Below are positions 7,902 to 59,843 of a DNA stretch of 64,000 bases, in pieces. Every line of letters starts with the position of its first letter. Positions within the stretch are counted from its first letter, which is position 1. This stretch comes from Phycisphaerae bacterium (GTDB lineage Bacteria; Planctomycetota; Phycisphaerae; UBA1845; Fen-1342), in contig CAXXWX010000001.1 of assembly GCA_963675745.2 (NCBI GenBank), positions 192,001 through 256,000 of the forward strand, given 5' to 3'. The position numbers were made by a program, and so were the translations under genes. The notes beneath the pieces are model-generated. The model was not told where the DNA came from, made no database searches, and was given only the letters and a program-made list of their open reading frames with translations.

Positions 7902-10900
7902 CTATCCGCCGATGATAGCGACGAACGCGTCAATATCTCCATTGTTGACCAGCCCGTCACCGTTGCAGTCGGCGAGCATGATATCGCATGACGGGAAATT
8001 CGACGCATACAGGACCGGGTCGGTAACGGCGAGCACGAATGGATCAATGTCGCCATTGTTGACCAGACCGTCGCAATTCAGATCGCCGTCCTGGTATCCA
8101 CCACAGGCTACCGGCCAGGCACCGATCAGGTCGCAGTTCGCATTGGGCGGCGAGAACGGTGCGCAGGGAGAGCTGGCATCCAGCGTGAAGTCATTCGCGC
8201 CGGCGTTGCAGAACAGCGGGTCAAGCGAGATGTTGTTGGGGTCACTGTCCTGGCCGAACAGGCAGTTGACCCAGTCTCCGCCGACGTTACCCCACATGTC
8301 AGAGCAGGTGGCGATGGCGAACGATGGGTCATTCGGCTCACACGCGACGGCTTCGCCCGCGACACTGGACGCGATGATCGTGTTCGTGATCTCGGCGGAG
8401 GAGCCCCAGAAGACGTAGATGCCGCCACCGCCGTAGTTCGGATTGGGGTCGGGGGCGGAGTTGGCGTGGAAGGTGCAGTTATCGACCTGCACAGAGGTGC
8501 CGTTTCCGAGGCAGAGACCGCCGCCGCCGGCGGTGTTCGTGAGGTTGTCGTAGAACGTGCACTTCTCAATAGTGCCGCCGGGCAGGCCGTAGACGGAGAG
8601 TCCGCCGCCACCAACGTTAGCTGTGTTCCCGCCATAGACGCACTCGGAGATGATCGGAACATCGGGGGAAGCCATGGAGGTCATGCCACCGCCGTGACCG
8701 CCGGTGGTCTGATTCCCAGTGAAGGTGGAGCGTCGCAGCTCGACCCAGTTAAACGTCGCCAGGCCGCCACCATCATCGCCCGCGATGTTGTCCTCGAAGA
8801 GGCAGTCGTGCACGACGGCCCAAGTGTAGTGGTCCAGCAGCAGCCCGCCGCCAAAGCTCGGCGCGGTGGTGTTCGAGCGGAACTCACAATCGGTGATCTT
8901 CGGTGAGGCACCGTTGCGCAGCACGGCCATGCCGCCACCGGCGTAAGCGGTGTTATCTTCCAGAATACACTGGTCAATCGTGGGGGACGACGCATTTTTG
9001 ATCACGATGCCGCCGCCCTCGTAGTTGTTGGGATCACTGACCATGTATCCGTTGATGATCTTAACAGCGCGAAGGACGGAGTTGGGATCTTCATCGGACT
9101 GGAAGATAAACCCGCGGTGTTCGTTGGCGGCGCCGGCGGCGCAGTCGATGATGCAGGCTTCGGCGTCGCCGCTCTGCGACTCGACGGTGATCTTCTTGCC
9201 GCCAAAGTCGACATCAATGTTGCCGGCACCGGTGAACGTTGCATCACAGAGCTGGATGATGTCGCCGTCGTACGCGGCGTCAATCGCGGCCTGGATGGTG
9301 GTGAAATCAGCCGGCCCGGTGGGGCAGACCGTGTACGTCTTCGGCACGCCGCAGTTGACGGGCCAGGCACCGATCAGGTCGCAGTTTGAATTGGGCGTTG
9401 CGAACGCCGCACAGGGCGAGTTGGTGTTGAGCGTGAAGTCCTTGCCGGCGGCGTAGCAGAACATCGGGTCGAGCGAGATGTTGTTGGGGTCGGCATCCTG
9501 GCCAAACAGGCAATCGACCCAGTCACCGCCGGCGTTGTTATAGATGTCGCAGCACGTGGCGGTCGCGGTGGCATCGTTCGGCTCACACGCGACGGCCTCA
9601 CCGGCAACACTGGACGCGATGATCGTGTTCGTGATCTCGAGGGATGAGGTCCAGAAGACGTAGATACCTCCGCCAACGGACGGGTCGTTCGGGTCATACG
9701 GGTAAGCGGCGTTGGCGTGGAACGTGCAGTTGTCGACCTCGACACTGGTGTTGTTTCCGAGGCTGAGTCCGCCGCCAGGGCCGGAGTTCACCACGTTGTC
9801 GTAGAAGGTGCACTCATCTATCACGCCGCCGGACAGGCCGTAGACGGAAAGGCCGCCGCCACCAACGTTGGCGGTGTTTCCGCCATAGATGCACTCGGAG
9901 ATGATCGGGACGTCGGGCGAAGCCATGGAAGTCATGCCGCCGCCGTGACCGTTGGTGGTCTGATTCCCGGTGAAAGTGCAGCGTTGCAGGTCGACCCAGT
10001 TGAAGGTTGCCAGACCGCCGCCGTCGTCGCCGGCAACGTTGTCCTCGAAGAGGCAGTCATACACGACGGCCCAGGTGCTGTGGTCAAGCAACAGCCCACC
10101 GCCAAAGCTTGGCTCGGTGGTGTTCGAGCGGAACTCACAATCGGTGATCTTCGGTGAGGCACCGTTGCGCAGCACCGCCATGCCGCCACCCGCGTAAGCG
10201 GTATTATCCTCCAGAATGCACTGGTCGATCGTGGGGGACGACGCGTTCCTGATCACAATGCCGCCACCATCGGCGTCGTTGGGCTCGCCGGTCATGTATC
10301 CGTTGATGATCTTGACCGCGCGGAGCACTGAATTGGGGTCTTCGTCGGAGTGGAAGACGAACCCGCGGTGGCGGTTGGCCGCGCTGGCGGCACAGTCGAT
10401 CACACAGGCCTCGGCGTTGCCACTCTGCGACTCGACGGTGATCTTCTTGCCGCCGAAGTCGACATCGACGTTGCCGGCACCGGTGAAAGTCGCGTCACAA
10501 AGCTGGATGGTGTCACCGTCGGCGGCTGCATTGATTGCCGCCTGAATGGTGGTGTAGTCCGCCGTCCCGGTGGGACAGACCGTGTACGTCATGGCGCCCG
10601 AGCAACCGACGCCATAACAGCCCACCTGCCCGCAGGGCAGCGCCAGCGGAGCGCACGGCGAGTTGGCGTGGACGGTGAAGTCATTTGTGCCGGCACCGCA
10701 GAAGATTGGGTCGGCCTGCATGTTGTTGCGCAGGGCGAGCTGCCCGGACAGGCCGCTGACCCAGTCGCCACCCGAGTTGGAGTAGACATCGGTGCATGTC
10801 GCCGTGACCGAACCGCCGCTGTTCACCCAGGCGGCTTCGCCACCACCGATGCCAAAGGCGATGATGGTGTTGTTAACCGCGGCGCTGGCGTTGTCCCACA

Positions 10901-11819
10901 TGTCGAAGCCGCTGCCCAGGGGCGAGTCGTTCCCGTAGAAGGTGCAGTAGTCGACATCGATGCTGGTGGTATAGCCCCAGGCGTACACGGCACCGCCGTG
11001 CAGGCCACTGACGTTCCCGTAAAGCAGACAGCTCGCGAGCGTCACGTCCGAGAAGTTCGCGATCAAAGCTCCGCCCGAGTTCCGGCCGTCGTTGTCGGCG
11101 AAGGTACACTCTTCGATCCAGACGATCGAGCTTTCGGCGTAGAGACCGCCGCCGCCACCACCGCCGACGCCGCCGGTGACCAGGTTGTCTGAGAACACGC
11201 ACTCAAAGAAGAACGGATCGGACTCGAGGCTGTAGACACCGCCACCGAAGGCGTTGTTCAGTCCACCGTTGGCGGTGTTGTTGGAGATCGTTGTCTGCTG
11301 GACGTAGGGGGAGGAGTCTTCGATGATGTACATCCCACCCCCGTTTTGCGACGTGTTGCCGTCGATGACACACCCGGTGATCGTCGGCGAGCCGGAAGCT
11401 GGATAGGTGATCGGTGGAAACCCCGTCTTACCGCAGACGATGCCGTGACCGGCGGCCGTGATCGTGACATACTCGAGCTTGGAGTTGCGGCCCTCATCGT
11501 TGACGAACAGGACTCCCCCGCCCGCTGCCGAGGGGCCCTGAATGGTACAGCTCGCCGGATCACCGCTTTGAGATCGGATGGTGATCTCCTTGCCGTTGTA
11601 GCTGAACCCACAGTTGTCGGTGCCACTGAAGGTGCCGTCGGTCAGCTCGATAATGTCGGTGTTGCTGGCGGCGTTGATCGCGGCCTGGATGGTCGGGTAA
11701 TCGCCGGTTCCGTCAGGTTTGACCACATATGTTGTGCCAAACACCGGTGATGCCAGCCCCCCCACCACCAGCAGCACGGTGATGCACGCTAACGAGTTTT
11801 TCAATTTCGCGGTTGACAT
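7902..11819 (-). CDS. Secreted protein with three tandem right-handed beta-helix (pectin-lyase-like) modules and a C-terminal dockerin-like domain
   Basis: Signal peptide. Three TIQAAI-initiated units with GGG/N-ladder repeats. C-terminal GDLNCDGLVNNGDIDPFV...DCNGDGLVNNGDIDAFV. Confidence 0.85.
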   Translation of the reverse strand: MSTAKLKNSLACITVLLVVGGLASPVFGTTYVVKPDGTGDYPTIQAAINAASNTDIIELTDGTFSGTDNCGFSYNGKEITIRSQSGDPASCTIQGPSAAGGGVLFVNDEGRNSKLEYVTITAAGHGIVCGKTGFPPITYPASGSPTITGCVIDGNTSQNGGGMYIIEDSSPYVQQTTISNNTANGGLNNAFGGGVYSLESDPFFFECVFSDNLVTGGVGGGGGGGLYAESSIVWIEECTFADNDGRNSGGALIANFSDVTLASCLLYGNVSGLHGGAVYAWGYTTSIDVDYCTFYGNDSPLGSGFDMWDNASAAVNNTIIAFGIGGGEAAWVNSGGSVTATCTDVYSNSGGDWVSGLSGQLALRNNMQADPIFCGAGTNDFTVHANSPCAPLALPCGQVGCYGVGCSGAMTYTVCPTGTADYTTIQAAINAAADGDTIQLCDATFTGAGNVDVDFGGKKITVESQSGNAEACVIDCAASAANRHRGFVFHSDEDPNSVLRAVKIINGYMTGEPNDADGGGIVIRNASSPTIDQCILEDNTAYAGGGMAVLRNGASPKITDCEFRSNTTEPSFGGGLLLDHSTWAVVYDCLFEDNVAGDDGGGLATFNWVDLQRCTFTGNQTTNGHGGGMTSMASPDVPIISECIYGGNTANVGGGGLSVYGLSGGVIDECTFYDNVVNSGPGGGLSLGNNTSVEVDNCTFHANAAYPYDPNDPSVGGGIYVFWTSSLEITNTIIASSVAGEAVACEPNDATATATCCDIYNNAGGDWVDCLFGQDADPNNISLDPMFCYAAGKDFTLNTNSPCAAFATPNSNCDLIGAWPVNCGVPKTYTVCPTGPADFTTIQAAIDAAYDGDIIQLCDATFTGAGNIDVDFGGKKITVESQSGDAEACIIDCAAGAANEHRGFIFQSDEDPNSVLRAVKIINGYMVSDPNNYEGGGIVIKNASSPTIDQCILEDNTAYAGGGMAVLRNGASPKITDCEFRSNTTAPSFGGGLLLDHYTWAVVHDCLFEDNIAGDDGGGLATFNWVELRRSTFTGNQTTGGHGGGMTSMASPDVPIISECVYGGNTANVGGGGLSVYGLPGGTIEKCTFYDNLTNTAGGGGLCLGNGTSVQVDNCTFHANSAPDPNPNYGGGGIYVFWGSSAEITNTIIASSVAGEAVACEPNDPSFAIATCSDMWGNVGGDWVNCLFGQDSDPNNISLDPLFCNAGANDFTLDASSPCAPFSPPNANCDLIGAWPVACGGYQDGDLNCDGLVNNGDIDPFVLAVTDPVLYASNFPSCDIMLADCNGDGLVNNGDIDAFVAIIGG
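8105..10590 (-). repeat. Intragenic tandem duplication, unit ~1.25 kb (~417 aa)
   Basis: Units begin TYTVCPTG at ~10588 and ~9337 and share long identical DNA tracts (e.g. gtgttcgagcggaactcacaatcggtgatcttcggtgaggcaccgttgcgcagcac). Confidence 0.9.
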
Positions 11820-12009
11820 GGCTTAGCCTCCCGTGCACCTGATCCGCCACAGTGGTGAGGCCCGGTGCGGCTGCAATACCAAATTGACGTTCGCGGGGCA
11901 TCGTCTGTCCATTGCCAGCCCAACAAGGGTGACTGCGATGCCTGTCAATATGGGGAACGTAAGGCGCAGCGCGCGACGACGCGAAAAACCAGCTTTCCTG
12001 CCGGAATGC

Positions 12010-18221: not shown

Positions 18222-18449
18222 ACCCAGCCGCAAGCCAGTCCGGCAATTGCGGTCGGTGGGTGATTTCACTTGATTCCGTTGCGGGACTGTGTCATTGTAC
18301 AATGAACCGTTTCGGACAGCGTGTTTCGTGCGGCTCCAACGATTGCGGCACGACGCGAATAGCCATCGATGCGCGCGCCGAGCACCGAAACACCGGCCCG
18401 AACCAGCCGATAGACAGGCACGGCATACTTGCCTGGGAGAGAGAAAGTC

Positions 18450-21400
18450 ATGAGGGTCCACGCACAATCGATCCTGATTCTAATAGCCCTTGGTGCCGTG
18501 CTCGCCAGCGCTGACTCCTGGCAGATGCAGCATCGCGACAGGGAGCGGACAGGCCGCAGCGACTTCGTCGTGCCCGCCTCGCGCATGAACGACACGTTCT
18601 TCGACGTCATACGCTGGCAAAAACGCACGCCGAACTCCCCCAACGAGGGGAATCTCGGCGCCAGCAGCATGGTGTTCTTTGACGGCGTCGGTCCGGGCGG
18701 GGCCAACCTCGTGGTGTGCGGCTATCACTGGCCAAAAGGCGTGCAAGGCATGGACCGCCACACAGGCGCGTACTTCTGGTCGGGCAATCCGGCCGGCGGC
18801 GAGTCGATCGGCGAGTTCACACCCGCTTTCGCCAATTACGGCACGGTCGTTTACGTCTGCAATGACGCGACCGGCAGCCCCGGCCACCCCACGATGGCGT
18901 TTCTGGCCAACAGCGGGCCGGATAGCTTCTGGCACAACGGCGATAACCCCAATCCGAATGAACTAAGCAACGGATCGCCCGTCATCGCTCCCGACGGCCG
19001 TATCTTCCGCTTCGCCTGGAACGATCGTCCCTACGCCGCGATGGACTTCGGCACGACCATCACGCATTCCTGGGCCGCTCAGAGCGGCGGTGGCGTCTGC
19101 TTCAATTCGCCCGCTTTGTACCGCTACACGTCCGGCGACCTGCGCGTCATCACGAGCGGTCGCTGGGGGCTGATCCAGTCGTTTCTGGCGGACGACCCAA
19201 ACGGCACCCTGGCGTGGTCCGTGGCGACAAGCCGGGCCACCGATGCTTGTCCGACGGTCGACCCCGACAATGGCAACGTGTACGTGGCGGCGAGCAATGG
19301 CAGTGTGTGGATCATCGGCGTTGACCGCGACGGCAACCCGCTCTGGGACGCCGTCAACGCCTACAAGCTCGTGTACGAGTGGATTAATGGCGTCAACAAC
19401 ACGCAGTCGGTCGGAGGGGCCGGCTGCCTCAGCCACGACGGCGCGACCTACTACTTCCAGTCGCACAACGCCGAGGGAGAGGGCCGCCTGTGGGCCATCA
19501 ACACGGCCGATGGGACGGTCAAGTGGAGCTACGAGACCGGCGCGACCGGGACCGGCGATGGCTGGCGTGCGGCGCCGATTGTCACGCCCAACGGCGTAAT
19601 TATCGTCGGGAACAACGACGGCGGAGCATACTACGCGCTCAGTGACGACGTCACCGCCGCCACGTTGCTCGACACGCTGGTGATTGAGCCCAATACCTCG
19701 GGCATCGCGAACGCGGTCGCCACGCCGACGCTATCCGCCGACGGGATGCTCTACATCCCTGCCCGGCTGACCTGGATGGCGGGCAATGGCGACGGCGAGA
19801 TTCCCACTTTCAATACGCAGAACCTCTTCAACGCCTTTGATATCAACGACGGCGCGGTGATGGACCTTCCACCACCACCCGGGCAGTTGGCCAAGGCCCT
19901 CAACAACGCCGTCGATGTTTCCTGGCGCCCGATCAGCGACCCGACAGGCGTGTTCGACCACTACGCCGTCTATCGCGAGCTCGCCGACTTCGGCAGCGTC
20001 AGCGGCCTCACGCCGATCGACACCGTCCCGGATGTGGCGACCGACCACTACCGTGACGAGACGGCGGTCAACGGGACCACGTACCATTACGCCGTGACGG
20101 CCGTATCGACGGGAGGCGGCGAAACAACGGTCATCAACGCGCTGGCGCCGCGAACGCCGTACGATGAGGACGACCTGCAAATCATCAGCATGTCGCGTCT
20201 GCCGCGTTTTCCGCGCTATCTGCCGATTTACAACGTGGCCGCGATGACCGAGCCCTCTGGTTTCGGGCCATATATCACGAGTGCGGCCGTGAGCCTTGAC
20301 GGTGGACAGGACGAGTTCACGCAGCGCTGGCCGGAGCTCAACGACCCCGTCACCTATGTCGCCACCGTGCGCAACGCCGGCACGAACCCCTACAACGGCA
20401 CGCTGGGCGGCACTTGGGAGCTGGACGGCGGCGTGATTGCCACGCCGTCACAGGTCGTCGCACTCGAGCCCGGCGACACGGTGACCTTCGAGATCGCGGT
20501 GAACTGGGACGACCTGCTGCACGATATCACATTCACACTCGACGTCAGCGACGATCATCCCGAAAACGACACACGCTACATCGGCACGAAGTCGGTGCCG
20601 TTCCTTACGTACGTGGATGCGAGCTATATCGAGGATTTCCGCGAGATCAGTACGCCGGAACAACCGCTCTCGCAGACCGACGACATGCTCGACTGGCTCT
20701 GGCGTCACGCCGATCGCATGAACGAGATGTTCGACGAAGCCGGCAGCCTGAAGCGCGTGCATTACGACGTTCTGGCGGTGACGCGCGATGGCGACGCCGA
20801 CCCCAGCATCGACCGCACGCCGTTCGCGATCTTCCCGTTCCGGTATTACTACGAGCACCCCTACTGGGACCCGCGCTATCCGGGTTATTACGCCGACGAT
20901 GACATTGACTATGGCCTGTGCCACGAGATGTCGCACCAACTCGGGCTGATCGACCTGTATCGCCTCGACGTGCATGGCCAGAACAACTACGTCTCGGGTC
21001 TGACGCGCTGGGCCACCGATGGGCTCATGCGGGTCGTCTCGCATTACTACTCCGAGAACAGCGCCCACGCGATGGACCACTGGCTGCACAAGGCGCACGG
21101 CTATTACGGGCAGTATCTGTACTACCTGCCCGAGACCGTTCAGCTTCGCATCGTCGGCAACGCCGGCCAGCCGATCGACGGCGCGTCGATCAAGGTCTAC
21201 CAGAAATGCGAGCGCCCCGGCCTGGGTGAGGTCATCACCACGCAGATCAAGGCCCAGGGCGTCACCGATGAAAACGGGCTGTGGACCATTCCGAATGTTC
21301 CGCTCGACCCAGACTTCGCGCCGCAGACCTACGCCGGCGACCTGTTGCGCGATAACCCGTTCGGCTATATCGCCGTCACCGGCACAAACGGCATTCTGCA

Positions 21401-21722
21401 CTTCGAGATCGAGTACGACGGCGATATCACGTATGAGTGGCTCGAAATCACGGACGTGAACAACGCCTATTGGAACGGCCAGACCACGCTCGCCATCTTC
21501 GAGCGGCAGATTCCCGTCGACTACGAGCCGGTCGTCGGCGATCTGAATTGCGACGGCGCGGTCAACAACGGCGATATCGACCCGTTCGTGCTGGCAATCA
21601 CCGACCCGGCACAGTATCAGGCCGATTGGCCCAACTGCGATATCATGCTCGCCGATATCAACGGCGACGGCTTCGCCAACAACGGCGATATCGACGCTTT
21701 TGTGGCGCTGTTATCCGGCTGA
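18450..21722 (+). CDS. Secreted protein: PQQ-like beta-propeller, FN3, CARDB-like, HExxH metallopeptidase-like module, C-terminal dockerin-like domain
   Basis: Signal peptide. WQMQHRD..RTG and DGTVKWSYETG propeller motifs, YHYAVTAV, HEMSH (20922-20936), GDLNCDGAVNNGDIDPFV. Confidence 0.8.
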   Translation: MRVHAQSILILIALGAVLASADSWQMQHRDRERTGRSDFVVPASRMNDTFFDVIRWQKRTPNSPNEGNLGASSMVFFDGVGPGGANLVVCGYHWPKGVQGMDRHTGAYFWSGNPAGGESIGEFTPAFANYGTVVYVCNDATGSPGHPTMAFLANSGPDSFWHNGDNPNPNELSNGSPVIAPDGRIFRFAWNDRPYAAMDFGTTITHSWAAQSGGGVCFNSPALYRYTSGDLRVITSGRWGLIQSFLADDPNGTLAWSVATSRATDACPTVDPDNGNVYVAASNGSVWIIGVDRDGNPLWDAVNAYKLVYEWINGVNNTQSVGGAGCLSHDGATYYFQSHNAEGEGRLWAINTADGTVKWSYETGATGTGDGWRAAPIVTPNGVIIVGNNDGGAYYALSDDVTAATLLDTLVIEPNTSGIANAVATPTLSADGMLYIPARLTWMAGNGDGEIPTFNTQNLFNAFDINDGAVMDLPPPPGQLAKALNNAVDVSWRPISDPTGVFDHYAVYRELADFGSVSGLTPIDTVPDVATDHYRDETAVNGTTYHYAVTAVSTGGGETTVINALAPRTPYDEDDLQIISMSRLPRFPRYLPIYNVAAMTEPSGFGPYITSAAVSLDGGQDEFTQRWPELNDPVTYVATVRNAGTNPYNGTLGGTWELDGGVIATPSQVVALEPGDTVTFEIAVNWDDLLHDITFTLDVSDDHPENDTRYIGTKSVPFLTYVDASYIEDFREISTPEQPLSQTDDMLDWLWRHADRMNEMFDEAGSLKRVHYDVLAVTRDGDADPSIDRTPFAIFPFRYYYEHPYWDPRYPGYYADDDIDYGLCHEMSHQLGLIDLYRLDVHGQNNYVSGLTRWATDGLMRVVSHYYSENSAHAMDHWLHKAHGYYGQYLYYLPETVQLRIVGNAGQPIDGASIKVYQKCERPGLGEVITTQIKAQGVTDENGLWTIPNVPLDPDFAPQTYAGDLLRDNPFGYIAVTGTNGILHFEIEYDGDITYEWLEITDVNNAYWNGQTTLAIFERQIPVDYEPVVGDLNCDGAVNNGDIDPFVLAITDPAQYQADWPNCDIMLADINGDGFANNGDIDAFVALLSG

Positions 21723-52610: not shown

Positions 52611-53369
52611 TCAGCCACTGCGTGGCGGGTACGACGTCGACATCGATGTCTTCACGTTCAGGAAATGGCCAACCGGGTCTTGCAGTGGCATCGGATGGGG
52701 CAGCGCAAACAACTCACCATAGCGAAAGCCGCAGCGGCCGCCTTCGGCACCATCAATCGAGCGGATGCGGTGCAGAATTTTCTCCAACCGCTCCTCGTCA
52801 AACTGCGACTTGTACGCCGCAATCGCCGCCGCTTTCTGCTCAAACGTGTCGCTGGTATCGACCACGAAAGTCGCGTGCCAGTGGCCCTGCTCGGCCGCGA
52901 GCGCCACGGGGCGGTACCAGAGCCAGTCGATACGGTGTGGTGGCGTGTCGTCAAAACGCTCATCCCACTTCGTCAATTGCGAATAAAAACGCGCAGCCTC
53001 AACGATTAGCTGGCCTTGATAGTGGTCGGGGGACGCGCCCGGCGTGCGGCCGGCCATTGAGACCACGATTTTCGGGCGGAAACGCCTGAAGACGGTCGCG
53101 ACGGCATAACGCGACTCAGGCGAGTCCATCAGCTCACGGTTCGTCAGGGGCAGGATCTCCACATGTTGCACACCGAGAATCTCCGCCGCCCGGTGCAGCT
53201 CCTCGGCGCGCACCTCGGCTGAACCGCGCGGAGTCGGCTCACCATTGGTCAAGTGTACAATCCCCACGCGATGGCCATCACGGGTCAGTCGCGCTATCGT
53301 GCCGCCGCAGGTAATCTCGATGTCGTCGGGATGCGGCATGGCGAAGATGATGTCGAGCTGCTGGGCCAC
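52611..53369 (-). CDS. PIG-L/LmbE family deacetylase (BshB1-like)
   Basis: PHPDDIEI..GGT, LTNGEPTPRG, PDH, AYKSQF. Confidence 0.88.
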   Translation of the reverse strand: MAQQLDIIFAMPHPDDIEITCGGTIARLTRDGHRVGIVHLTNGEPTPRGSAEVRAEELHRAAEILGVQHVEILPLTNRELMDSPESRYAVATVFRRFRPKIVVSMAGRTPGASPDHYQGQLIVEAARFYSQLTKWDERFDDTPPHRIDWLWYRPVALAAEQGHWHATFVVDTSDTFEQKAAAIAAYKSQFDEERLEKILHRIRSIDGAEGGRCGFRYGELFALPHPMPLQDPVGHFLNVKTSMSTSYPPRSG

Positions 53370-53566
53370 TATCGTAACCTCCCGCGCTGCTTCCGCTTGC
53401 TGAGTGTCCCCGCAACGATGTTATCGACTTGGCGCGCAGGGGCAACACGGACCTTCCAGCAGGGATGGCCGGCGGCCGATGGGGCAGACCGAGCACAGAC
53501 AGTGCAGAACGACCGACCGGAGGTCGGTCCCACAGGTAGTTCCACGCAGTCTCTTCCGCGGCCTGC

Positions 53567-56422
53567 TCAGCCGCCCAGCAGTTGCACGAACGGGTCGATG
53601 TCGGCGTTGTTGACGCTTTCGTCACCATTGCAGTCCGCGGCCATGATGTTGCAGTCGGGATAGCTGGTGCCATACGTGCCCGGCTGAGTGATGGCGAGCA
53701 CGAACGCGTCGATATCGGCGTTGTTGATGAAACCGTCGCAATTGCAATCGCCGGTGAGCGTCTCTTCGCACTCATCGGGAATGCCGTTGTCGTTGAAATC
53801 GGTCGAGTTGGCCGGCATCAACTGAAGCGACAGCGTCGTGCCTACCGGTGATCCACCAACCACGGCGCCGCCGACATTGTATGACCACAGCACGGCCGAG
53901 CTGCCATCCTCCTGATATCCGACTGTCGCGGAGTAGCCGTCATCGTAGAGCGCGTTGTCAAAATCAGTGTCCAGGTAGAGGAACTGGGCATAGACGTTGG
54001 CGGTCGGTGTTTCGAAGATTTGAACCTGGAAGGTCACTTCGTCACCATCGAGAACCGTGTCTCCCAGATGGTGCGGGCGGTCTTTCCACTCAATGATGAA
54101 AGCCCGTTGCGGCGGATCTCCGACGACGTCCCAGTAGACGTTGCCGGTATCGGCGTCGAGGTCGTCCCAATACGGCAACAAGGCCTGCGCCCCGCCGAAC
54201 GCCAGCCCGCTGGGCAACGGGAAATTGTAGTTGTTGAGATTCAGCGTGCCGCCAAACCCAATCCCGCCGTTGTTGTGTACCTGCGCTGAACTGCTCGCAA
54301 ACACGTTGTTCGTGAAGGGCATGCTGACGCTAGCGCCACTGTCGTCACCGAGGCTGAGCGGCGTGCCGCTGGCGGAGATTTCAACCCAGCCGAGCACCGG
54401 GGCGACGGCGTCCAGTAGCTCCGGCGGGCGCAAGGCGATGTCGCACTCGTCCGGGATGCCGTTCGTGTTGCAGTCCTGGCTGAAGCCGCCACTGATGTCG
54501 TCGGCGTCGGGCAGGCTGTTGCCATTGCAGTCCGTCAATGGGTCGCAAACGTCTCCGATGCCGTCATCATCGCCGTCTTCCTGGTCGGGGTTGTAGTCGA
54601 GGATGCAGTTATCCGCGCCGTCGAGGATCGTATCGTCGTCGGAGTCGTCATCTAGCGGATCACTGTTGTACGTGTTGACTTCGTCGCCGTCGGTAAGGCC
54701 GTCGTCATCCGAGTCTTCGTCGAGCGGCTTGGTGCCGTGCTGCTGCTCCTCGAGATTGGTCAGGCCGTCGGGTTCCTCATCGACGTCGCCGTCGTGGCCG
54801 AGGTCGCCGAACCAGGTCGTTTCCCAATCGTCGTCCAACCCGTCGGCATCAGTATCACCCTCGATCGGCCCCGGCAGAGCCATGGTGTAGTACGCGTCGG
54901 TTGTATTTCCCATCCAGTACTCGAGATTGAATTCGGAAACCTCGATGAAGCGGTACCAGATAGTGCCGTAATGCTCGACGCGAACGATCAGCACGCCGTT
55001 GGCTTGTCCATAGGTGTGAACGATGTCTCCGCCGGGGTTGAAGGGGTTGCGACCGAAATCAACGTAGCCGTTGGCGTCGGCCGTGTAATAGGCATCGACG
55101 GTGTTGTCGAAGAGCTTGCCGTACCAGCCGGACGCGGGCTCGGCGCGATAGACGCGGACGTCGGCGCCGGTGCGCGGCCTGCCAAACGCATCCTCGAAAC
55201 GATAGTGGTTGTTGTCCGGCAGATCCTGAAGATACACGCCGATGTTGGCCGGCGCATTCTGGTTGCCGCCGTAGTTTGTTCCGCCATATCCGCAACAGGC
55301 ACGGTCGTAGGCGATCAACTGGAGCGCGCCGGCTTCGTACGGTGACCAGACGTATCCCCACGGTCCGCTCATCACGCCGCCGCTGCTGTTGTAGCGCAGC
55401 ACCTCGTCGAACGCGATGTATGGCATGTAGGCGCTGCCGCCGACGTAGGTAGCACCTTCCCAGATCTGGACCGAATCAAAGCCGCCGTGATCGGCCGTGT
55501 TGTGTACGTCAAAGCCGTACGAGTCGATCAGGTAACGCGCGTGCCCCAACTCGTGCAGCAGCGACTTCTCGAAGTAGAAGGGGTTGTCATCGCTTACGTT
55601 GCTGACGTCGGCGTAGAAAGTGCTCGGCGGGAGCAGGTCGGTGTTGAACCCCCACATCAGGTCCACTTCCTTGTTGTAGCGATCCGGGTTGTTGCTCGGA
55701 TAGCCGCCGGCCAGCGGCAACGCGTCATCGGGGACCACGACAATCTGGTCGATGCGCACGCGCGTGCCAACACCGCCCGGCGTAACATCCCAGACGGCAT
55801 CCTCGTACATGTCGTTCTGGCGGCTCATGTGGCGTTGAATCCAGTCTTCCCAGGAGTTCGAGCCGACGCCGAGACGCCACTGGTTCTCGTGGAAGTACCG
55901 CCACACCGATTCCTCGACCCAGAATCCGGCCAGGATCGCGTCGGTATAGTCCACGATCGAGTTGTTGCTCTCGCTCAATTCCGGAATCGCGTTTGCGGGA
56001 TCGACAATGAACTCGACCGTGTGCGGGCCGGCCTGCCAGATCCAGTCCAGCGTGACGATCCTGAGCCCCGTCGGCGGATCGTTCGGATCGTAAGGGTCAA
56101 AGTCATAGTCGAATGGCGGGGTAAGCGGCTCAAAGTTGGTGATCGTGCCGGTATCGGCGACGGCACCGTCGATCACCCAGGCGTAGGCGACGCTCGGCAG
56201 CGCGCCGGCGCCGGACTCGTCCCAGAGACGCACGTGCCCGTGGAATGTGACCAGGTTGCCGGTCTGTGGCATGTTGGGCACATCGTCGTAGTCGTAACGC
56301 GGCGTTCGCTCGATGAGCGTGACATTCAAATCGGTGTTGGGCCCGGCATACGCCGGCAGAGCGACAAACGTCACGGCAACGACGGCGCAACACGTGTGAA
56401 ACGCGATCCTGATACGGTTCAT
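53567..56422 (-). CDS. Secreted protein: CARDB-like, HExxH metallopeptidase-like module, TSP3-like Ca-binding repeats, nidogen-like domain, C-terminal dockerin-like domain
   Basis: Signal peptide, ELSESNN, HELGH (55541-55555), DSDDDGLTDG and DNC..NPDQ.D repeats, PYWDDLD, GDCNCDGFINNADID. Confidence 0.82.
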   Translation of the reverse strand: MNRIRIAFHTCCAVVAVTFVALPAYAGPNTDLNVTLIERTPRYDYDDVPNMPQTGNLVTFHGHVRLWDESGAGALPSVAYAWVIDGAVADTGTITNFEPLTPPFDYDFDPYDPNDPPTGLRIVTLDWIWQAGPHTVEFIVDPANAIPELSESNNSIVDYTDAILAGFWVEESVWRYFHENQWRLGVGSNSWEDWIQRHMSRQNDMYEDAVWDVTPGGVGTRVRIDQIVVVPDDALPLAGGYPSNNPDRYNKEVDLMWGFNTDLLPPSTFYADVSNVSDDNPFYFEKSLLHELGHARYLIDSYGFDVHNTADHGGFDSVQIWEGATYVGGSAYMPYIAFDEVLRYNSSGGVMSGPWGYVWSPYEAGALQLIAYDRACCGYGGTNYGGNQNAPANIGVYLQDLPDNNHYRFEDAFGRPRTGADVRVYRAEPASGWYGKLFDNTVDAYYTADANGYVDFGRNPFNPGGDIVHTYGQANGVLIVRVEHYGTIWYRFIEVSEFNLEYWMGNTTDAYYTMALPGPIEGDTDADGLDDDWETTWFGDLGHDGDVDEEPDGLTNLEEQQHGTKPLDEDSDDDGLTDGDEVNTYNSDPLDDDSDDDTILDGADNCILDYNPDQEDGDDDGIGDVCDPLTDCNGNSLPDADDISGGFSQDCNTNGIPDECDIALRPPELLDAVAPVLGWVEISASGTPLSLGDDSGASVSMPFTNNVFASSSAQVHNNGGIGFGGTLNLNNYNFPLPSGLAFGGAQALLPYWDDLDADTGNVYWDVVGDPPQRAFIIEWKDRPHHLGDTVLDGDEVTFQVQIFETPTANVYAQFLYLDTDFDNALYDDGYSATVGYQEDGSSAVLWSYNVGGAVVGGSPVGTTLSLQLMPANSTDFNDNGIPDECEETLTGDCNCDGFINNADIDAFVLAITQPGTYGTSYPDCNIMAADCNGDESVNNADIDPFVQLLGG

Positions 56423-56605
56423 TGCAATACCCTCGCAATCCCATCCGCTGGATTCCATTGATCCAGTATAGCCAACCCCGGTCCCCAGCGGGCGCAACCA
56501 ACCAGGAATTCTTGCATGTCGGCACCGCCGAGCGCCCCCGCGCCTGACGATCGCCCGAGCCCACGTCGCCAACCCGCACCGGAGAATCGGCACCTCCTGC
56601 CGGCC

Positions 56606-56685
56606 CGCAGGTTGGTAGGGCGCTTTGATGCACCGATTCCATCCGCAGAGCACGAATGGTGCGGCGAGCCACACTACACCTGCAC
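56606..56685 (+). repeat. GTAG-type REP-like element, direct-repeat copy 1
   Basis: Similar to 58479-58557. The 22-nt core cgaatggtgcggcgagccacac is identical (56653-56674 and 58529-58550). Confidence 0.8.
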
Positions 56686-56836
56686 CCGCCTCGAATCCAC
56701 CGTTTACGCCACGCACCCGGGTTCCACCTCCTCCCTCTCGAGGGAATCTCTTGTGTCATGCGGCGTCGGGCGCGATAATTAGATACCTGAAGGATCTACC
56801 TGATCTGGACGCGGCACTTCTGAAGGAGGGACACAC

Positions 56837-58051
56837 ATGCTTCCACGACACATCACCGTTGCCTTAACGCTGGTTCTAATCGTCGGTAGCCAGGCACAGG
56901 CCCAGGATCGTTATCCGCGGCGATGCGACCTGAACTGCGATGGTCTGCTCAACAACGGCGACATCGATGCATTCGCGCTGGCCATCACGTACCCGGGGCA
57001 GTACCTGTATGACTACCCCGACTGCGACATTAGCTTGGCCGACACAAACTGCGATGGCGCGGTCAACAACGGTGACATCGACGGCTTTGTGGCGGGACTG
57101 GGCGGCGGAAGCATTCCGGCGTGTCCAGGGGACATGGTGCTCGTCCCCGCCGGCGAGTTCGAGATGGGCGACAGCTTCGGCGAGGGATACTCCTATGAAC
57201 TCCCCGTCCACGACGTGTATCTCGACGCGTACTACATCGACACGTACGAGGTCACGAACGAGCAATACGCCGACGCGCTCAACTGGGCCTGGGACCAGGG
57301 TGGGCTGATTCATGTCAGCGGCGGCGTGGTGCTCAAGTACGGCGGCACAACCTATGGTTATTGTGATACCACGACCAGCTCGTCACACAGCCGCATCGAG
57401 TGGGACGGCGACATCTTCACGGTCACCCCAGGCAAGGAAGACCACCCGATGGCCAACGTAAGTTGGTACGGCGCGGTGGCCTTCAGCAACTGGCGCAGTG
57501 GCATGGAAGGGCGCACGGCGTGTTACGATCTGGCGACGTGGACGTGCAACTTCGACGCCGACGGCTACCGGTTGCCGACGGAGGCCGAGTGGGAGAAGGC
57601 AGCCGGCTGGGATCCGGTCCTGGAGCGGCATTTCCGCTTCGGCGAGCACACCGACGGCTGCGGATATAATTGCCTGGACGGCCATCGGGCCAACTACTGG
57701 GAGAGCGGACATCCGTACGAGAACGGTGCTTACCCGTGGACGACGCCGGTAGGCTACTACGACGGCCGCAACCATGGTGGGTACCAGACCGAGGATGCGC
57801 AGAGCTACTATGGCTGCCGCGACATGAGCGGTAACGTATGGGAGTGGTGCCACGACTGGTACGACTCAGGGTACTACAGCTCCAGCCCGTACCATAACCC
57901 GACGGGGCCCGCCTCGGGAACATACCGTGTTTTGCGCGGCGGCAGCTGGAACAGCAATCCGAGCCCCTGCCGCGCGGCGTATCGCGGCAGGGTCGACCCA
58001 CACCCCCGCCTCAACAACTACGGGTTTCGTTGCGTGCCGGGGACTCAGTAA
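56837..58051 (+). CDS. Secreted protein with an N-terminal dockerin-like domain and an FGE-sulfatase (C-type lectin fold) domain; putative DGR target
   Basis: Signal peptide, CDLNCDGLLNNGDID, MVLVPAGEFEMG, YEVTN, RLPTEAEWEKAA, DMSGNVWEWC, RVLRGGSW...GFRC at the extreme C-terminus. Confidence 0.9.
   Translation: MLPRHITVALTLVLIVGSQAQAQDRYPRRCDLNCDGLLNNGDIDAFALAITYPGQYLYDYPDCDISLADTNCDGAVNNGDIDGFVAGLGGGSIPACPGDMVLVPAGEFEMGDSFGEGYSYELPVHDVYLDAYYIDTYEVTNEQYADALNWAWDQGGLIHVSGGVVLKYGGTTYGYCDTTTSSSHSRIEWDGDIFTVTPGKEDHPMANVSWYGAVAFSNWRSGMEGRTACYDLATWTCNFDADGYRLPTEAEWEKAAGWDPVLERHFRFGEHTDGCGYNCLDGHRANYWESGHPYENGAYPWTTPVGYYDGRNHGGYQTEDAQSYYGCRDMSGNVWEWCHDWYDSGYYSSSPYHNPTGPASGTYRVLRGGSWNSNPSPCRAAYRGRVDPHPRLNNYGFRCVPGTQ
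57923..58051 (+). other. Putative DGR variable region (VR)
   Basis: Invariant scaffold codons (RGGSW, CRAA.R, GFR) interleaved with 15 NNC/NNT codons that could derive from AAY template codons. Confidence 0.7.
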
Positions 58052-58087
58052 CTGCTTGTGGCTTTACTGCTTTCTTTTTTCAATCTA

Positions 58088-58115
58088 GCGCGGCCCGAGG
58101 CCCGAAGGGCCGCGC
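58088..58115 (+). promoter_or_regulatory. GC-rich hairpin downstream of the VR (candidate DGR homing cis-element)
   Basis: GCGCGGCCC-N10-GGGCCGCGC, or alternatively GGCCC-GAA-GGGCC. The T-rich tract lies before it, not after. Confidence 0.65.
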
Positions 58116-58126
58116 AGCGCGCGAGA

Positions 58127-58198
58127 ATGGCCAACGACGAGTTGCTGGTTATCGAGCGGACGTATCAACTGCTGAAGTGGTTTCTGGAAAGACTGGGT
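58127..58198 (+). pseudogene. avd: Truncated avd (DGR accessory variability determinant), 5' fragment
   Basis: MANDELLVIERTYQLLKWFLERLG resembles the first helix of Avd proteins as I recall them. Similarity stops before the expected FP..R..LG..I segment. Confidence 0.7.
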
Positions 58199-58238
58199 TT
58201 GTCACAGCATCGCGGGGTCAAGTCTGCTGGCCATCTCC

Positions 58239-58432
58239 GCCCCGGAGGGGCAGCGGTCAGTAGCCGGGGGCGCCAGCCCCCGGTTAGCGCACCAACACGA
58301 TCGAGCCCCGGCGGGGCGCCGGTTGTGGGCGCCATAAGGCGGTTACCGTCGCCCCGCCGGGGCTCGATCACACATCGGCACACTGGCCGGGGGCTGCGCC
58401 CCCGGCTACTAACCAGCGCCCCTACCGGGGCT
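58239..58432. repeat. Nested palindromic REP/MITE-like element
   Basis: Outer imperfect IR 58239-58288 / 58383-58432. Inner perfect 20-bp IR 58299-58318 / 58350-58369. Confidence 0.85.
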
Positions 58433-58478
58433 CATCCGTCTGGTGGCCTCGAATGGCGCTCGCTCCAACGCCAATGCA

Positions 58479-58557
58479 CGCAGATTGGTAGGCGTACGTC
58501 TTGACGCACCGATTTCATCCATTGAGCGCGAATGGTGCGGCGAGCCACACCCTGCAC
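58479..58557 (+). repeat. GTAG-type REP-like element, direct-repeat copy 2
   Basis: ttggtaggcgtacgtcttgacgcaccg...aatggtgcggcgagccacaccctgcac. Confidence 0.8.
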
Positions 58558-58715
58558 GTACCGAACTTCGCCTCGTCTGCCCGGCGCCAGGCCCTGCTCG
58601 TGGACGGCTCCGCGGCGCCCCGCCCTTGACATGCACGCCTGTCGCCGTAACTCTACGAATCTGCGCTGCCCCTGGGAATGCGGCAGGCATACGTCGGCAT
58701 ATTGAGGCTTGGCTA

Positions 58716-59843
58716 ATGGGGTATGCGTACACACCCGGCTTGTCGGTCGCGGAAAACACTATTATCCGCAAGGTGCGAAGGCTGCCGCTCAAGGGACAGG
58801 TGCTGGTTAAGGTCGGTGATGAGGTTAACGCCGAGGACGTCGTCGCCCAAACCGAGCTGCCCGGCGAGGTTCGGCCGATAAACGTGGTCGGCAAGCTCGG
58901 CTGCGCGCCCGAGGAGTTGGTTGAGATCGTCCTCAAGAAGGAAGGCGACTCGGTAGCCGAAAACGAGGCGTTCGTCCGCACCAAGGGCTTTTTCGGGCTG
59001 TTCAGGAGCGAGGTGCGCTCGCCAATTGCCGGCAAGATCGAATCCATCTCGCACGTCACCGGCCAGGTGATCATCCGCGGCGCGCCGATCCTGCTCCAGA
59101 AGACGGCGTATGCGCGCGGCAAGGTGGTCGAGACGCACGAGGCCGAATCCGCCACGGTCGAGGTCAGCGGGACGTTCATCCAGGGAATCTTCGGCATCGG
59201 TGGCGAGACCTGGGGCGAAGTGGTTATGGCGGTCGATTCACCGGACGACGTGCTCGATGCCAAGCACATCACCGACGCCCATGCCGGCAAGATCATCGTG
59301 GGCGGCTGCCTGGTGACCGCATCGGCCGTCAAGCAGGCAATCAAGGTCGGGGTCAGCGGGATAGTGTGTGGCGGCCTGAATGACGCCGATTTGCGCGATT
59401 TTCTCGGATACGAGCTGGGAGTGGCGATCACTGGTGAGGAGAAGCTCGGCGTCACCGTCATGATTACGGAGGGCTTCGGCAAGATCGGGATGGCCAGGGC
59501 TACTTTTGATCTGCTCAAGAAGCGCGCCGGGCTGCTGGCCAGCATCAACGGCGCCACGCAGATTCGCGCCGGCGTGATTCGCCCCGAGCTGATCATCCCG
59601 CTCGATGAGAAAGCGGAAGTGACCGGCGCGGAAGATGATGAGATGGGCAGCGTGCTTCAGGTCGGCACGCCGCTGCGCGCCATCCGTGACCCGTTCTTCG
59701 GGCGCATCGGCAAGTGCGTGGCCCTGCCGGTCGAGTTGGAGCGGCTTTCGAGCGAAACCAAGGTGCGCGTGCTCGAAGTTGAGTTTGACGACGGCCAGCG
59801 GGCAACCATACCGCGTGCCAACGTGGAGTTGATCAAGAACTAG
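58716..59843 (+). CDS. Conserved hypothetical protein (barrel-sandwich N-terminus; family often found next to GlmL/MutL-type genes)
   Basis: MGYAYTPGL..RRLPLKG.VLV..GD.V, GVAITG.E, LTEGFG-like ITEGFG, PRANVELI. Confidence 0.7.
   Translation: MGYAYTPGLSVAENTIIRKVRRLPLKGQVLVKVGDEVNAEDVVAQTELPGEVRPINVVGKLGCAPEELVEIVLKKEGDSVAENEAFVRTKGFFGLFRSEVRSPIAGKIESISHVTGQVIIRGAPILLQKTAYARGKVVETHEAESATVEVSGTFIQGIFGIGGETWGEVVMAVDSPDDVLDAKHITDAHAGKIIVGGCLVTASAVKQAIKVGVSGIVCGGLNDADLRDFLGYELGVAITGEEKLGVTVMITEGFGKIGMARATFDLLKKRAGLLASINGATQIRAGVIRPELIIPLDEKAEVTGAEDDEMGSVLQVGTPLRAIRDPFFGRIGKCVALPVELERLSSETKVRVLEVEFDDGQRATIPRANVELIKN

What the first reader, a model, noticed from the sequence alone, without database searches (positions are those of the whole stretch)
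56837..58198. Dockerin-tagged C-type-lectin/FGE gene with DGR variable region, hairpin and avd stub: a candidate hypervariable plug-in for a surface scaffold
Seen in the sequence: (1) The gene ends in RVLRGGSW-NSNPSP-CRAA-Y-R-G-R-VDPHP-R-LNNY-GFRC, and the non-scaffold codons are AAC AGC AAT AGC CCC TAT GGC GTC GAC CAC CCC CTC AAC AAC TAC, all NNY. (2) A pyrimidine tract and a GC hairpin follow (58088-58115). (3) An ATG at 58127 opens MANDELLVIERTYQLLKWFLERLG. Established: DGRs mutate TR adenines, typically in AAY codons, into a C-terminal VR of CLec-fold proteins, including FGE-type ones such as Treponema TvpA. A hairpin after the VR aids homing, and target-avd-TR-RT is a common gene order. 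Inference: this is a DGR target. Its N-terminal dockerin is the same type as on three other secreted proteins here, so diversified binding domains may be docked on a cohesin-like scaffold beside enzymes. I do not know of this combination being characterised. Caveat: high GC3 makes C-ending codons common anyway.
Basis: partly seen in the sequence, partly recalled or inferred. Interest (0 to 1): 0.92.

Follow-up and report, generated by a model that had tools for sequence, protein, structure and literature searches.

The report
Orphaned DGR target with dockerin tag
This secreted binding-protein gene was once rewritten by a bacterial hypermutation cassette that has since been cut away in this genome, so it is probably frozen, although related bacteria keep complete cassettes of the same design, one of them on a similar dockerin-tagged protein.

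Summary
The DGR anatomy is real, but the machinery is missing. The 404-aa gene (signal peptide, dockerin-like module, FGE/CLec domain) ends in a DGR variable region: all 11 codons that are AAY in most of 19 related TRs are NNY here. The tract, hairpin and avd stub match intact target-avd-RT-TR cassettes of relatives. The assembly (91% complete) holds no TR (best non-self hit 28/108 non-A mismatches), no DGR RT and no full Avd. The avd homology stops after about 24 codons, shortly before a palindrome, and the hairpin carries a 7-nt duplication. In the one run holding the locus, the VR lies on one unbranched contig (depth 4), and a second contig skips the whole 2-kb segment. Best reading: an orphaned, frozen DGR target. 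The dockerin-like tag is not special: 157 copies against one cohesin. It alternates with PEP-CTERM and an Ig-like module on related targets. One intact DGR with a dockerin-like FGE target was found (L304), a combination my literature searches did not find.

The parts
56837..58051 (+). Target gene, 404 aa, intact ORF with an AAGGAGG ribosome-binding site at 56823-56829
56837..56902 (+). Probable Sec signal peptide (aa 1-22, ending AQA)
   Evidence: hydropathy peak 3.3 and AxA motif; no SignalP run; inference
56927..57106 (+). Dockerin-like module (two DxNCDGxxNNGDID repeats), one of 157 in the genome
   Evidence: genome-built HMM iE 6.4e-27; family profile vs PDB: top hit a dockerin, E 2.7e-5; Pfam Dockerin_1 only 12.9 bits, below the 22.9 cut-off
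57131..58036 (+). FGE-sulfatase / CLec-fold domain (aa 99-400), lacking the first catalytic Cys of FGE
   Evidence: PF03781 E 1.9e-53; TvpA 2y3c E 1.1e-16 by sequence; AF2 pLDDT 95.4, Foldseek to FGE and TvpA
57926..58045 (+). Variable region (aa 364 onwards) with an IMH-like 3' end
   Evidence: 11/11 NNY at family AAY codons; A-biased mismatch to 19 related TRs; boundaries inferred from TR/VR pairs of intact relatives
58052..58081 (+). Pyrimidine tract, in the same position as in intact cassettes
58088..58115 (+). Homing hairpin with a 7-nt tandem duplication: either a 9-bp stem with a 10-nt loop or a 5-bp stem with the family GAA loop
   Evidence: one search compared with L233, L167, L168, L117
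58127..58198 (+). avd 5' remnant (about 24 codons); the frame then runs on into unrelated sequence
   Evidence: 57/72 nt to G459 avd, then 17/60
58239..58431 (.). GC-rich long palindrome (REP/MITE-like) where avd-RT-TR would be; one similar element on contig C4
56603..56685 (+). Left copy of an ~85-nt direct repeat flanking the gene
   Evidence: 79% over 86 nt to 58476-58557; core 88% over 50 nt
58476..58557 (+). Right copy of the direct repeat
56571..58619 (.). Segment skipped by an alternative contig (depth 5) in run X1; probably strain-variable
   Evidence: joint 56570->58620 and additive depths; inference

Best explanation
An orphaned DGR target. Shown: the gene and its 3' flank are the 5' part of a Planctomycetota (probably Phycisphaerae) DGR cassette of the order target-VR-tract-hairpin-avd-RT-TR, and everything after about avd codon 24 is missing from the assembly. 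Inferred: the VR was written by adenine-specific retrohoming while the cassette was whole. A deletion or replacement, possibly tied to the palindromic element, then removed the rest and froze one variant. The product is most likely a secreted, non-catalytic CLec-fold binding protein held at the cell surface or matrix through a Ca2+-binding dockerin-like tag that this genome puts on about 157 proteins. Its ligand is unknown; an extracellular polymer, another cell or a phage are the likely classes, by analogy with cellular DGR targets.
For: VR signature. The best DNA match to VR-hairpin-stub among 72 family genomes is the G459 cassette, 71% over 283 nt, which has full avd, RT and TR. Intact cassettes with zero non-A TR/VR mismatches: 5 of 11 loci and 7 of 10. 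No TR in the genome: 28/108 non-A mismatches at best, with A-rich background at 30-31. All four RT hits are copies of one group II intron-type RT. No full Avd. The family hairpin occurs nowhere else in the genome. Cut-off cassettes recur: 12 of 51 VR/TR-avd rows have avd cut to 20-56 residues with no full RT. G454 has a whole cassette with stops. A DGR-type RT was found in 4 of 72 family genomes. The hairpin duplication resembles changes that lower homing in BPP-1 (PMC3240598, passages). Precedents: T. denticola isolates with targets but no RT or TR (PMC4891356) and MITE-degraded DGR loci in Thiohalocapsa (PMC10907252).
Against: The assembly is 91.4% complete, 6.1% contaminated and in 28 contigs, so a DGR core could be unassembled or unbinned. 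Three other contigs of run X1 match the avd stub at 80% or more (summed depth 10.8) and their host is unknown. The VR looks fresh (7/7 NNY against 4-7/7 in paralogues). Contig depth 4 cannot show rare variants, and 311 difference rows were not displayed. Expression and function of the protein were not tested.
Confidence: 0.66

Rival explanations
1. Active remote target: a TR and RT elsewhere in the same cells (unassembled, unbinned, or on a plasmid or prophage) still diversify this VR in trans, and VR, tract and hairpin are kept as the homing site.
For: Remote and trans targets are known (PMC5758913, PMC10907252 passages). The genome is incomplete. Avd-like contigs occur in the same run. The VR and tract are well preserved.
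Against: No TR or RT in the assembly and no DGR RT in the congeners. Five relatives, three with several such targets or stubs, also show only group II-level RT matches (25-34%). The hairpin is altered. The VR lies on a single unbranched contig with 0 differences.
Confidence: 0.15
2. Neutral passenger: a recently acquired, already decaying fragment of a mobile DGR island with no selected role; the ORF is intact only because the loss is recent.
For: An alternative contig skips the 2-kb segment. No FGE gene lies within 1.5 kb upstream of the neighbouring gene in 3 of 3 congeners. Flanking repeats and palindrome. Decayed cassettes in relatives.
Against: The dockerin-like module is of this genome's own NNGDID type (73% to its nearest paralogue), and the signal peptide resembles that of the C15 paralogue, so the gene is integrated with the host's secreted repertoire. 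At least 13 FGE/CLec genes with intact VR-like ends persist in the genome.
Confidence: 0.16
3. An ordinary FGE-family enzyme; the NNY codons reflect high GC3 and the stub is chance.
For: The best sequence and fold hits are true FGEs. GC3 is high.
Against: The first of the two active-site cysteines is absent. The Avd stub, hairpin and tract are homologous to intact DGRs. A-biased mismatch to TRs.
Confidence: 0.03

Closest known systems
Treponema denticola DGR target TvpA (PDB 2y3c) and Wu et al. category 'b' CLec1/FGE-sulfatase targets (PMC5758913)
   Same: FGE-type CLec fold with a C-terminal VR, non-catalytic, varied N-terminal modules; T. denticola isolates also keep targets without RT/TR (PMC4891356)
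   Different: Sec signal plus a dockerin-like tag; order target-avd-RT-TR with an avd remnant left behind. No dockerin fusion was seen in the passages or supplement searched.
Degraded and remote DGR loci of Thiohalocapsa PB-PSB1 (Dore et al. 2024, PMC10907252)
   Same: Repeat elements replace DGR components; strains differ in locus structure; N-terminal domains are shuffled onto a CLec VR
   Different: Those targets are linked to conflict systems and a working RT/TR exists in that genome; here the target is a secreted surface protein and no RT/TR was found.
Bordetella phage BPP-1 DGR (mtd-avd-TR-brt; hairpin, PMC3240598)
   Same: VR, IMH-like end, GC-rich hairpin, avd directly after the target
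   Different: Cellular, not phage; TR lies after RT in relatives; GAA loop rather than a 4-nt GRNA loop; this copy is truncated.
'Planctosome' cohesin/dockerin hypothesis in freshwater Planctomycetes (PMC6461901)
   Same: Non-cellulosomal dockerin-bearing secreted proteins, and a protein with both cohesin and dockerin (here C13:87977-85608)
   Different: That model is hypothetical, concerns peptidases, and no DGR appears in the passages read; here 157 dockerin-like modules face one detectable cohesin.
Formylglycine-generating enzyme (PDB 2q17, 6muj)
   Same: Fold (Foldseek E 3e-23, TM about 0.63)
   Different: The first catalytic Cys is absent; the active-site region is the VR.

Membership tests
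Functional DGR | Target gene with a C-terminal CLec-fold VR | tested here: met
Functional DGR | VR differs from a TR mainly at TR adenines | tested here: inconclusive
   A-biased against non-cognate TRs of relatives (16/31 vs 8/77 at best); no cognate TR available
Functional DGR | Cognate TR in the same genome | tested here: not met
   best non-self hit 28/108 non-A mismatches; assembly 91% complete
Functional DGR | DGR-clade RT in the same genome | tested here: not met
   only a group II intron-type RT, 4 copies, 24-33% to DGR RTs
Functional DGR | Accessory Avd gene | tested here: not met
   24-codon remnant only; the two weak bAvd hits (below cut-off) do not follow a target and look like IVP four-helix-bundle genes (label recalled)
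Functional DGR | Hairpin downstream of VR | tested here: inconclusive
   present but with a 7-nt duplication relative to intact relatives
Functional DGR | Population hypervariation at VR | tested here: inconclusive
   one run, contigs only, depth 4.1, VR on one contig with 0 differences
DGR-derived (orphan) target | Homology of VR, 3' flank and avd start to intact cassettes | tested here: met
Dockerin type I | Duplicated DxNxDG calcium-binding loop-helix repeat | tested here: met
   alignment A3; profile hits PDB dockerins, best E 2.7e-5
Dockerin type I | Pfam PF00404 gathering score | tested here: not met
   12.9 bits vs 22.9 for this copy; 13 of 27 listed genome matches pass
Dockerin type I | Ca2+-dependent binding to a cohesin | not testable with these tools
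Cellulosome-like scaffold | Scaffoldin with several cohesins in the genome | tested here: not met
   one cohesin-like domain by Pfam and by a 31-sequence family HMM; a divergent receptor could be missed
Formylglycine-generating enzyme | Two active-site cysteines after RGGS | tested here: not met
   alignment to 6muj/2q17: only the second Cys is kept

The most novel reading that the evidence does not exclude
Phycisphaerae use DGRs as transient library generators for surface-displayed binders. A CLec/FGE VR is fused to interchangeable display tags (dockerin-like, PEP-CTERM, an N-terminal Ig-like module) and diversified while avd-RT-TR is present. Useful variants are then frozen by loss of the machinery and accumulate as a fixed repertoire (at least 13 such genes here). 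The dockerin-tagged ones plug into a shared surface receptor beside some 150 secreted proteins: a DGR-written recognition module for a non-cellulosomal multi-protein surface complex.
Probability: 0.2. Interest if true: 0.78.

Novelty: new variant of a known kind. Interest (0 to 1): 0.5.

Why it matters
Orphan DGR targets are known, so this locus alone is modest. What it points to is less ordinary. Intact planctomycete DGRs diversify secreted CLec proteins that carry dockerin-like, PEP-CTERM or Ig-like display tags, a set of architectures I did not find in print. Truncated copies are common in this lineage, and RT-centred DGR surveys miss them. L304 and the intact PEP-CTERM cassettes (L224, L344, L345) give direct test systems for what cellular DGR targets bind and for what the very abundant planctomycete dockerin-like module does.

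Tried and rejected
TR search in the genome by blastn, regular expression and A-tolerant scan: nothing; the same scan for a C26 paralogue found only its twin. RT and Avd searches in the genome: group II intron-type RT and two sub-threshold bAvd hits only. The TR next to the dockerin target in G024 is not cognate to its own VR (17/77 non-A mismatches, ungapped, one indel) and has no RT. The first AF2 model from 15 sequences failed (pLDDT 36); 120 sequences gave 95.4. No sigma-70-like promoter in 56400-58800. Idea that the stub is a fixed cis-element: rejected, because stubs end at 20-56 residues, although the window and G027 break at the same codon. The FGE-domain tree (45 sequences, VR removed, FastTree) puts the window among orphans with tag types scattered; two long-branch intact groups sit nearby and support is uneven, so no donor is claimed. 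Only one sequencing run holds the locus; it may be the source sample and is not independent. Three look-ups in earlier scan notes returned nothing. Literature: 'diversity-generating retroelement' + 'dockerin' gave 1 paper, unrelated by its listing; + 'PEP-CTERM' gave 0. Supplement searches found no dockerin in PMC8144416, PMC10907252 or PMC5758913. Two large PMC8144416 tables were searched only to about 4 million characters; bioRxiv supplements and subscription papers were not seen, so prior mention cannot be excluded.

Full report
Observation. The window is G000:C1:192001-256000 of a 5.2-Mb, 28-contig assembly, 91.4% complete and 6.1% contaminated. The closest named homologues of the gene come from Phycisphaerae/Planctomycetota MAGs, so the host is probably a planctomycete of that class (inference). 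ORF 56837-58051 encodes 404 aa: a hydrophobic N-terminus ending AQA, a two-repeat dockerin-like module, and PF03781 at aa 99-400 (E 1.9e-53). An AF2 model of the domain from 120 sequences has pLDDT 95.4 and matches FGEs and the DGR target TvpA. Only the second of the two FGE active-site cysteines is kept.

The VR is real. I collected 20 TRs from related loci, 19 of the same length as the window's VR. At the 11 codons that are AAY in at least 15 of the 19, the window has 11 NNY codons; the background third-position C+T is 165/268, p about 0.005. Mismatches to the nearest TRs fall on TR adenines: 16/31 vs 8/77 (L246) and 17/30 vs 13/78 (L233). Two of 19 comparisons were not significant (p 0.055, 0.064), and the TRs are related, so these are not independent tests.

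The parent element. G140 (L167), G274 (L168) and G459 (L233, same family) carry target-VR-tract-hairpin-avd-RT-TR with the same hairpin core and avd start; their Avd and RT pass Pfam cut-offs where tested (L168, L233). Zero non-A TR/VR mismatches were seen in 5 of 11 loci and 7 of 10; the rest had indels, decay, a non-cognate TR or no TR within the fetched DNA. G459's own VR has a 1-nt deletion. Among 72 family genomes the best match to window 57900-58200 is the G459 cassette (71% over 283 nt). The window's stub is 57/72 nt identical to G459 avd (8 synonymous, 4 non-synonymous codon changes) and falls to 17/60 beyond 58198.

The machinery is missing here. An A-tolerant scan of both strands of the genome found no TR: the best non-self hit, a paralogue's VR, has 28 non-A mismatches in 108 nt. 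The four RT hits are copies of one 469-aa group II intron-type RT, 24-33% identical to DGR RTs. No full Avd was found. The three congeners show no DGR RT (completeness 68-97%), and 4 of 72 family genomes have one, one of them with stops. A long palindrome (58239-58431) sits where avd-RT-TR should be, and an 85-nt direct repeat flanks the gene. The hairpin has a 7-nt duplication, leaving either a 10-nt loop or a 5-bp stem. In BPP-1, enlarging the loop by 2 nt or shortening the stem by 2 bp or more sharply lowers homing (PMC3240598, passages); transfer to this family is inference.

Population data are thin. One run holds the locus. Its contigs cover the VR with a single 1099-nt piece, depth 4.1, 0 differences; contigs drop rare variants and 311 rows were not shown. 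A contig of depth 5 joins 56570 to 58620. The flanking contigs have depth 8.8 and 9.3, and the bin depths 11.5, 5.98 and 9.27 are reproduced if that contig covers only 56487-56570 and 58620-58669 (my arithmetic). This looks like a co-occurring strain without this gene. What lies between is not known, and the tool warns that joints at 80% likeness can come from other organisms. Against my reading, three further contigs match the avd stub (summed depth 10.8), so related DGRs are in the sample, host unknown.

Truncation is a lineage habit. Of 51 distinct VR- or TR-plus-avd rows in the loci held (4 rows are TRs; G459 was missed because of its frameshift), 12 including the window have avd cut to 20-56 residues without a full RT, and 24 have an RT of at least 280 aligned residues. 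The loci were gathered by target, TR and avd searches, so this is not a frequency estimate. G008 has several targets with the tract but no avd, and G027 has three with stubs; neither has a DGR RT. Precedents exist: 8 of 17 T. denticola isolates have targets without TR/RT (PMC4891356, passages), and MITE-like repeats replace DGR parts in Thiohalocapsa (PMC10907252, passages).

The dockerin. This copy is below the Pfam cut-off (12.9 vs 22.9 bits), but an 18-sequence profile hits PDB dockerins first (E 2.7e-5). A genome-built HMM finds 157 domains at iE below 1e-6, 149 of them C-terminal. One cohesin-like domain was found (C13:87977-85608, a protein with its own dockerin). Its family occurs in 34 of 72 family genomes, and its profile hits cellulosomal cohesins (E 7.9e-7). 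A ratio of 157:1 does not fit a classical scaffoldin, though a divergent receptor could be missed. On a second FGE-like paralogue group in this genome the C-terminus is either VPEP (PEP-CTERM-like) or the dockerin-like module, suggesting an interchangeable display tag (inference). Binding was not tested. The 'planctosome' of PMC6461901 (passages) is itself a hypothesis.

The combination in working form. L304 (metagenome contig Ga0307990_1002898) has signal, dockerin-like module (PF00404 E 2.9e-4, 21.4 bits, just below cut-off), a MopE-type motif and FGE, followed by avd, RT and a TR differing from the VR at 8/34 adenines and 0/74 other positions. Other intact cassettes have PEP-CTERM after the VR (L224, L344, L345) or an N-terminal module with weak Ig/cadherin hits (L218, L221; similar in L216, L262). 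Dockerin-FGE orphans with stubs include L117, L125 (two), L226 and L354. Searches for DGR + dockerin and DGR + PEP-CTERM found 1 unrelated and 0 papers. Supplements of three DGR surveys had no dockerin (two tables truncated); Dore et al. list one Phycisphaerae DGR RT and show PEP-CTERM only as a neighbouring gene label. Roux et al. already describe cellular targets as mostly secreted or membrane-bound binders (passages), and Wu et al. describe varied N-terminal modules on FGE targets (passages).

Verdict. It works like a DGR target and descends from one, but it is not a member of a functional DGR in this assembly: TR, RT and full Avd were tested and not found. Most likely it is a frozen surface binder (0.66); a trans-activated remote target (0.15) or a neutral decaying passenger (0.16) remain open. 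Novelty: new variant of a known kind. Interest 0.5, carried mainly by the tagged, secreted DGR targets of this lineage rather than by this copy. All six papers were seen as search passages, three also by supplement search; none was read whole.

Noticed in passing
L224, L344, L345 (also L217/L247): Intact DGRs whose FGE/CLec target continues past the VR into a PEP-CTERM tail, so the VR is not C-terminal; TR/VR differ only at adenines in L224, L344 and L345.
   Followed up: partly
G000 C15, C17, C19, C24, C26 (e.g. C26:377930-376698, C19:134424-135590): Ten paralogues of that PEP-CTERM-type FGE family, ending in either VPEP or the dockerin-like module; one has SEVPE directly before the dockerin. 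NNY at seven family AAY positions is 4-7 of 7 against a background of about 0.6: possibly older frozen DGR products.
   Followed up: partly
G000 C26:67573-65981 and C26:7129-5759: Near-identical twin genes whose differences cluster in the VR-equivalent region (17 differing codons within the 35 before the GFR motif), but not only at adenine-type positions.
   Followed up: partly
G000 C13:87977-85608 (L329): 789-aa secreted protein with PMP-type repeats, the genome's only cohesin-like domain and a C-terminal dockerin-like module; the cohesin family is in 34 of 72 family genomes.
   Followed up: partly
window 7905-11822 (-), 18414-21719 (+), 53567-56716 (-): Three large secreted proteins with the C-terminal dockerin-like module; window 53278-53775 (-) also holds a dockerin-like fragment in an alternative frame at about 53500-53400.
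   Followed up: no
L117:7300-8150 (G024): Dockerin-FGE target, avd cut at about 41 aa, then an inserted GxxExxY-type gene (label recalled) with flanking repeats, then a short scrap of RT end and a TR that is not cognate to the adjacent VR.
   Followed up: partly
window 58127-58198 and L123: The avd remnant breaks at the same codon in two different families, although other stubs end elsewhere; unexplained.
   Followed up: partly
G000 C7:128037-129446, C26 (two copies), C16: Three copies of a 469-aa group II intron-type RT with identical scores and one 5'-truncated copy.
   Followed up: no
window 56348-56391: The run's contig differs from the window at 12 positions in this 44-nt stretch of the upstream gene's signal-peptide region, at full depth 8.8: strain variation or an assembly difference.
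   Followed up: no
window 58716-59843: Conserved 375-aa gene of unknown function (weak biotin-lipoyl hit), 69-77% identical in three congeners, with a TTGACA-type upstream motif also seen there.
   Followed up: no
L011, L017, L061, L064: DGR cassettes in other lineages with an HRDC-like gene (label recalled) between target and RT, beside or instead of avd.
   Followed up: no
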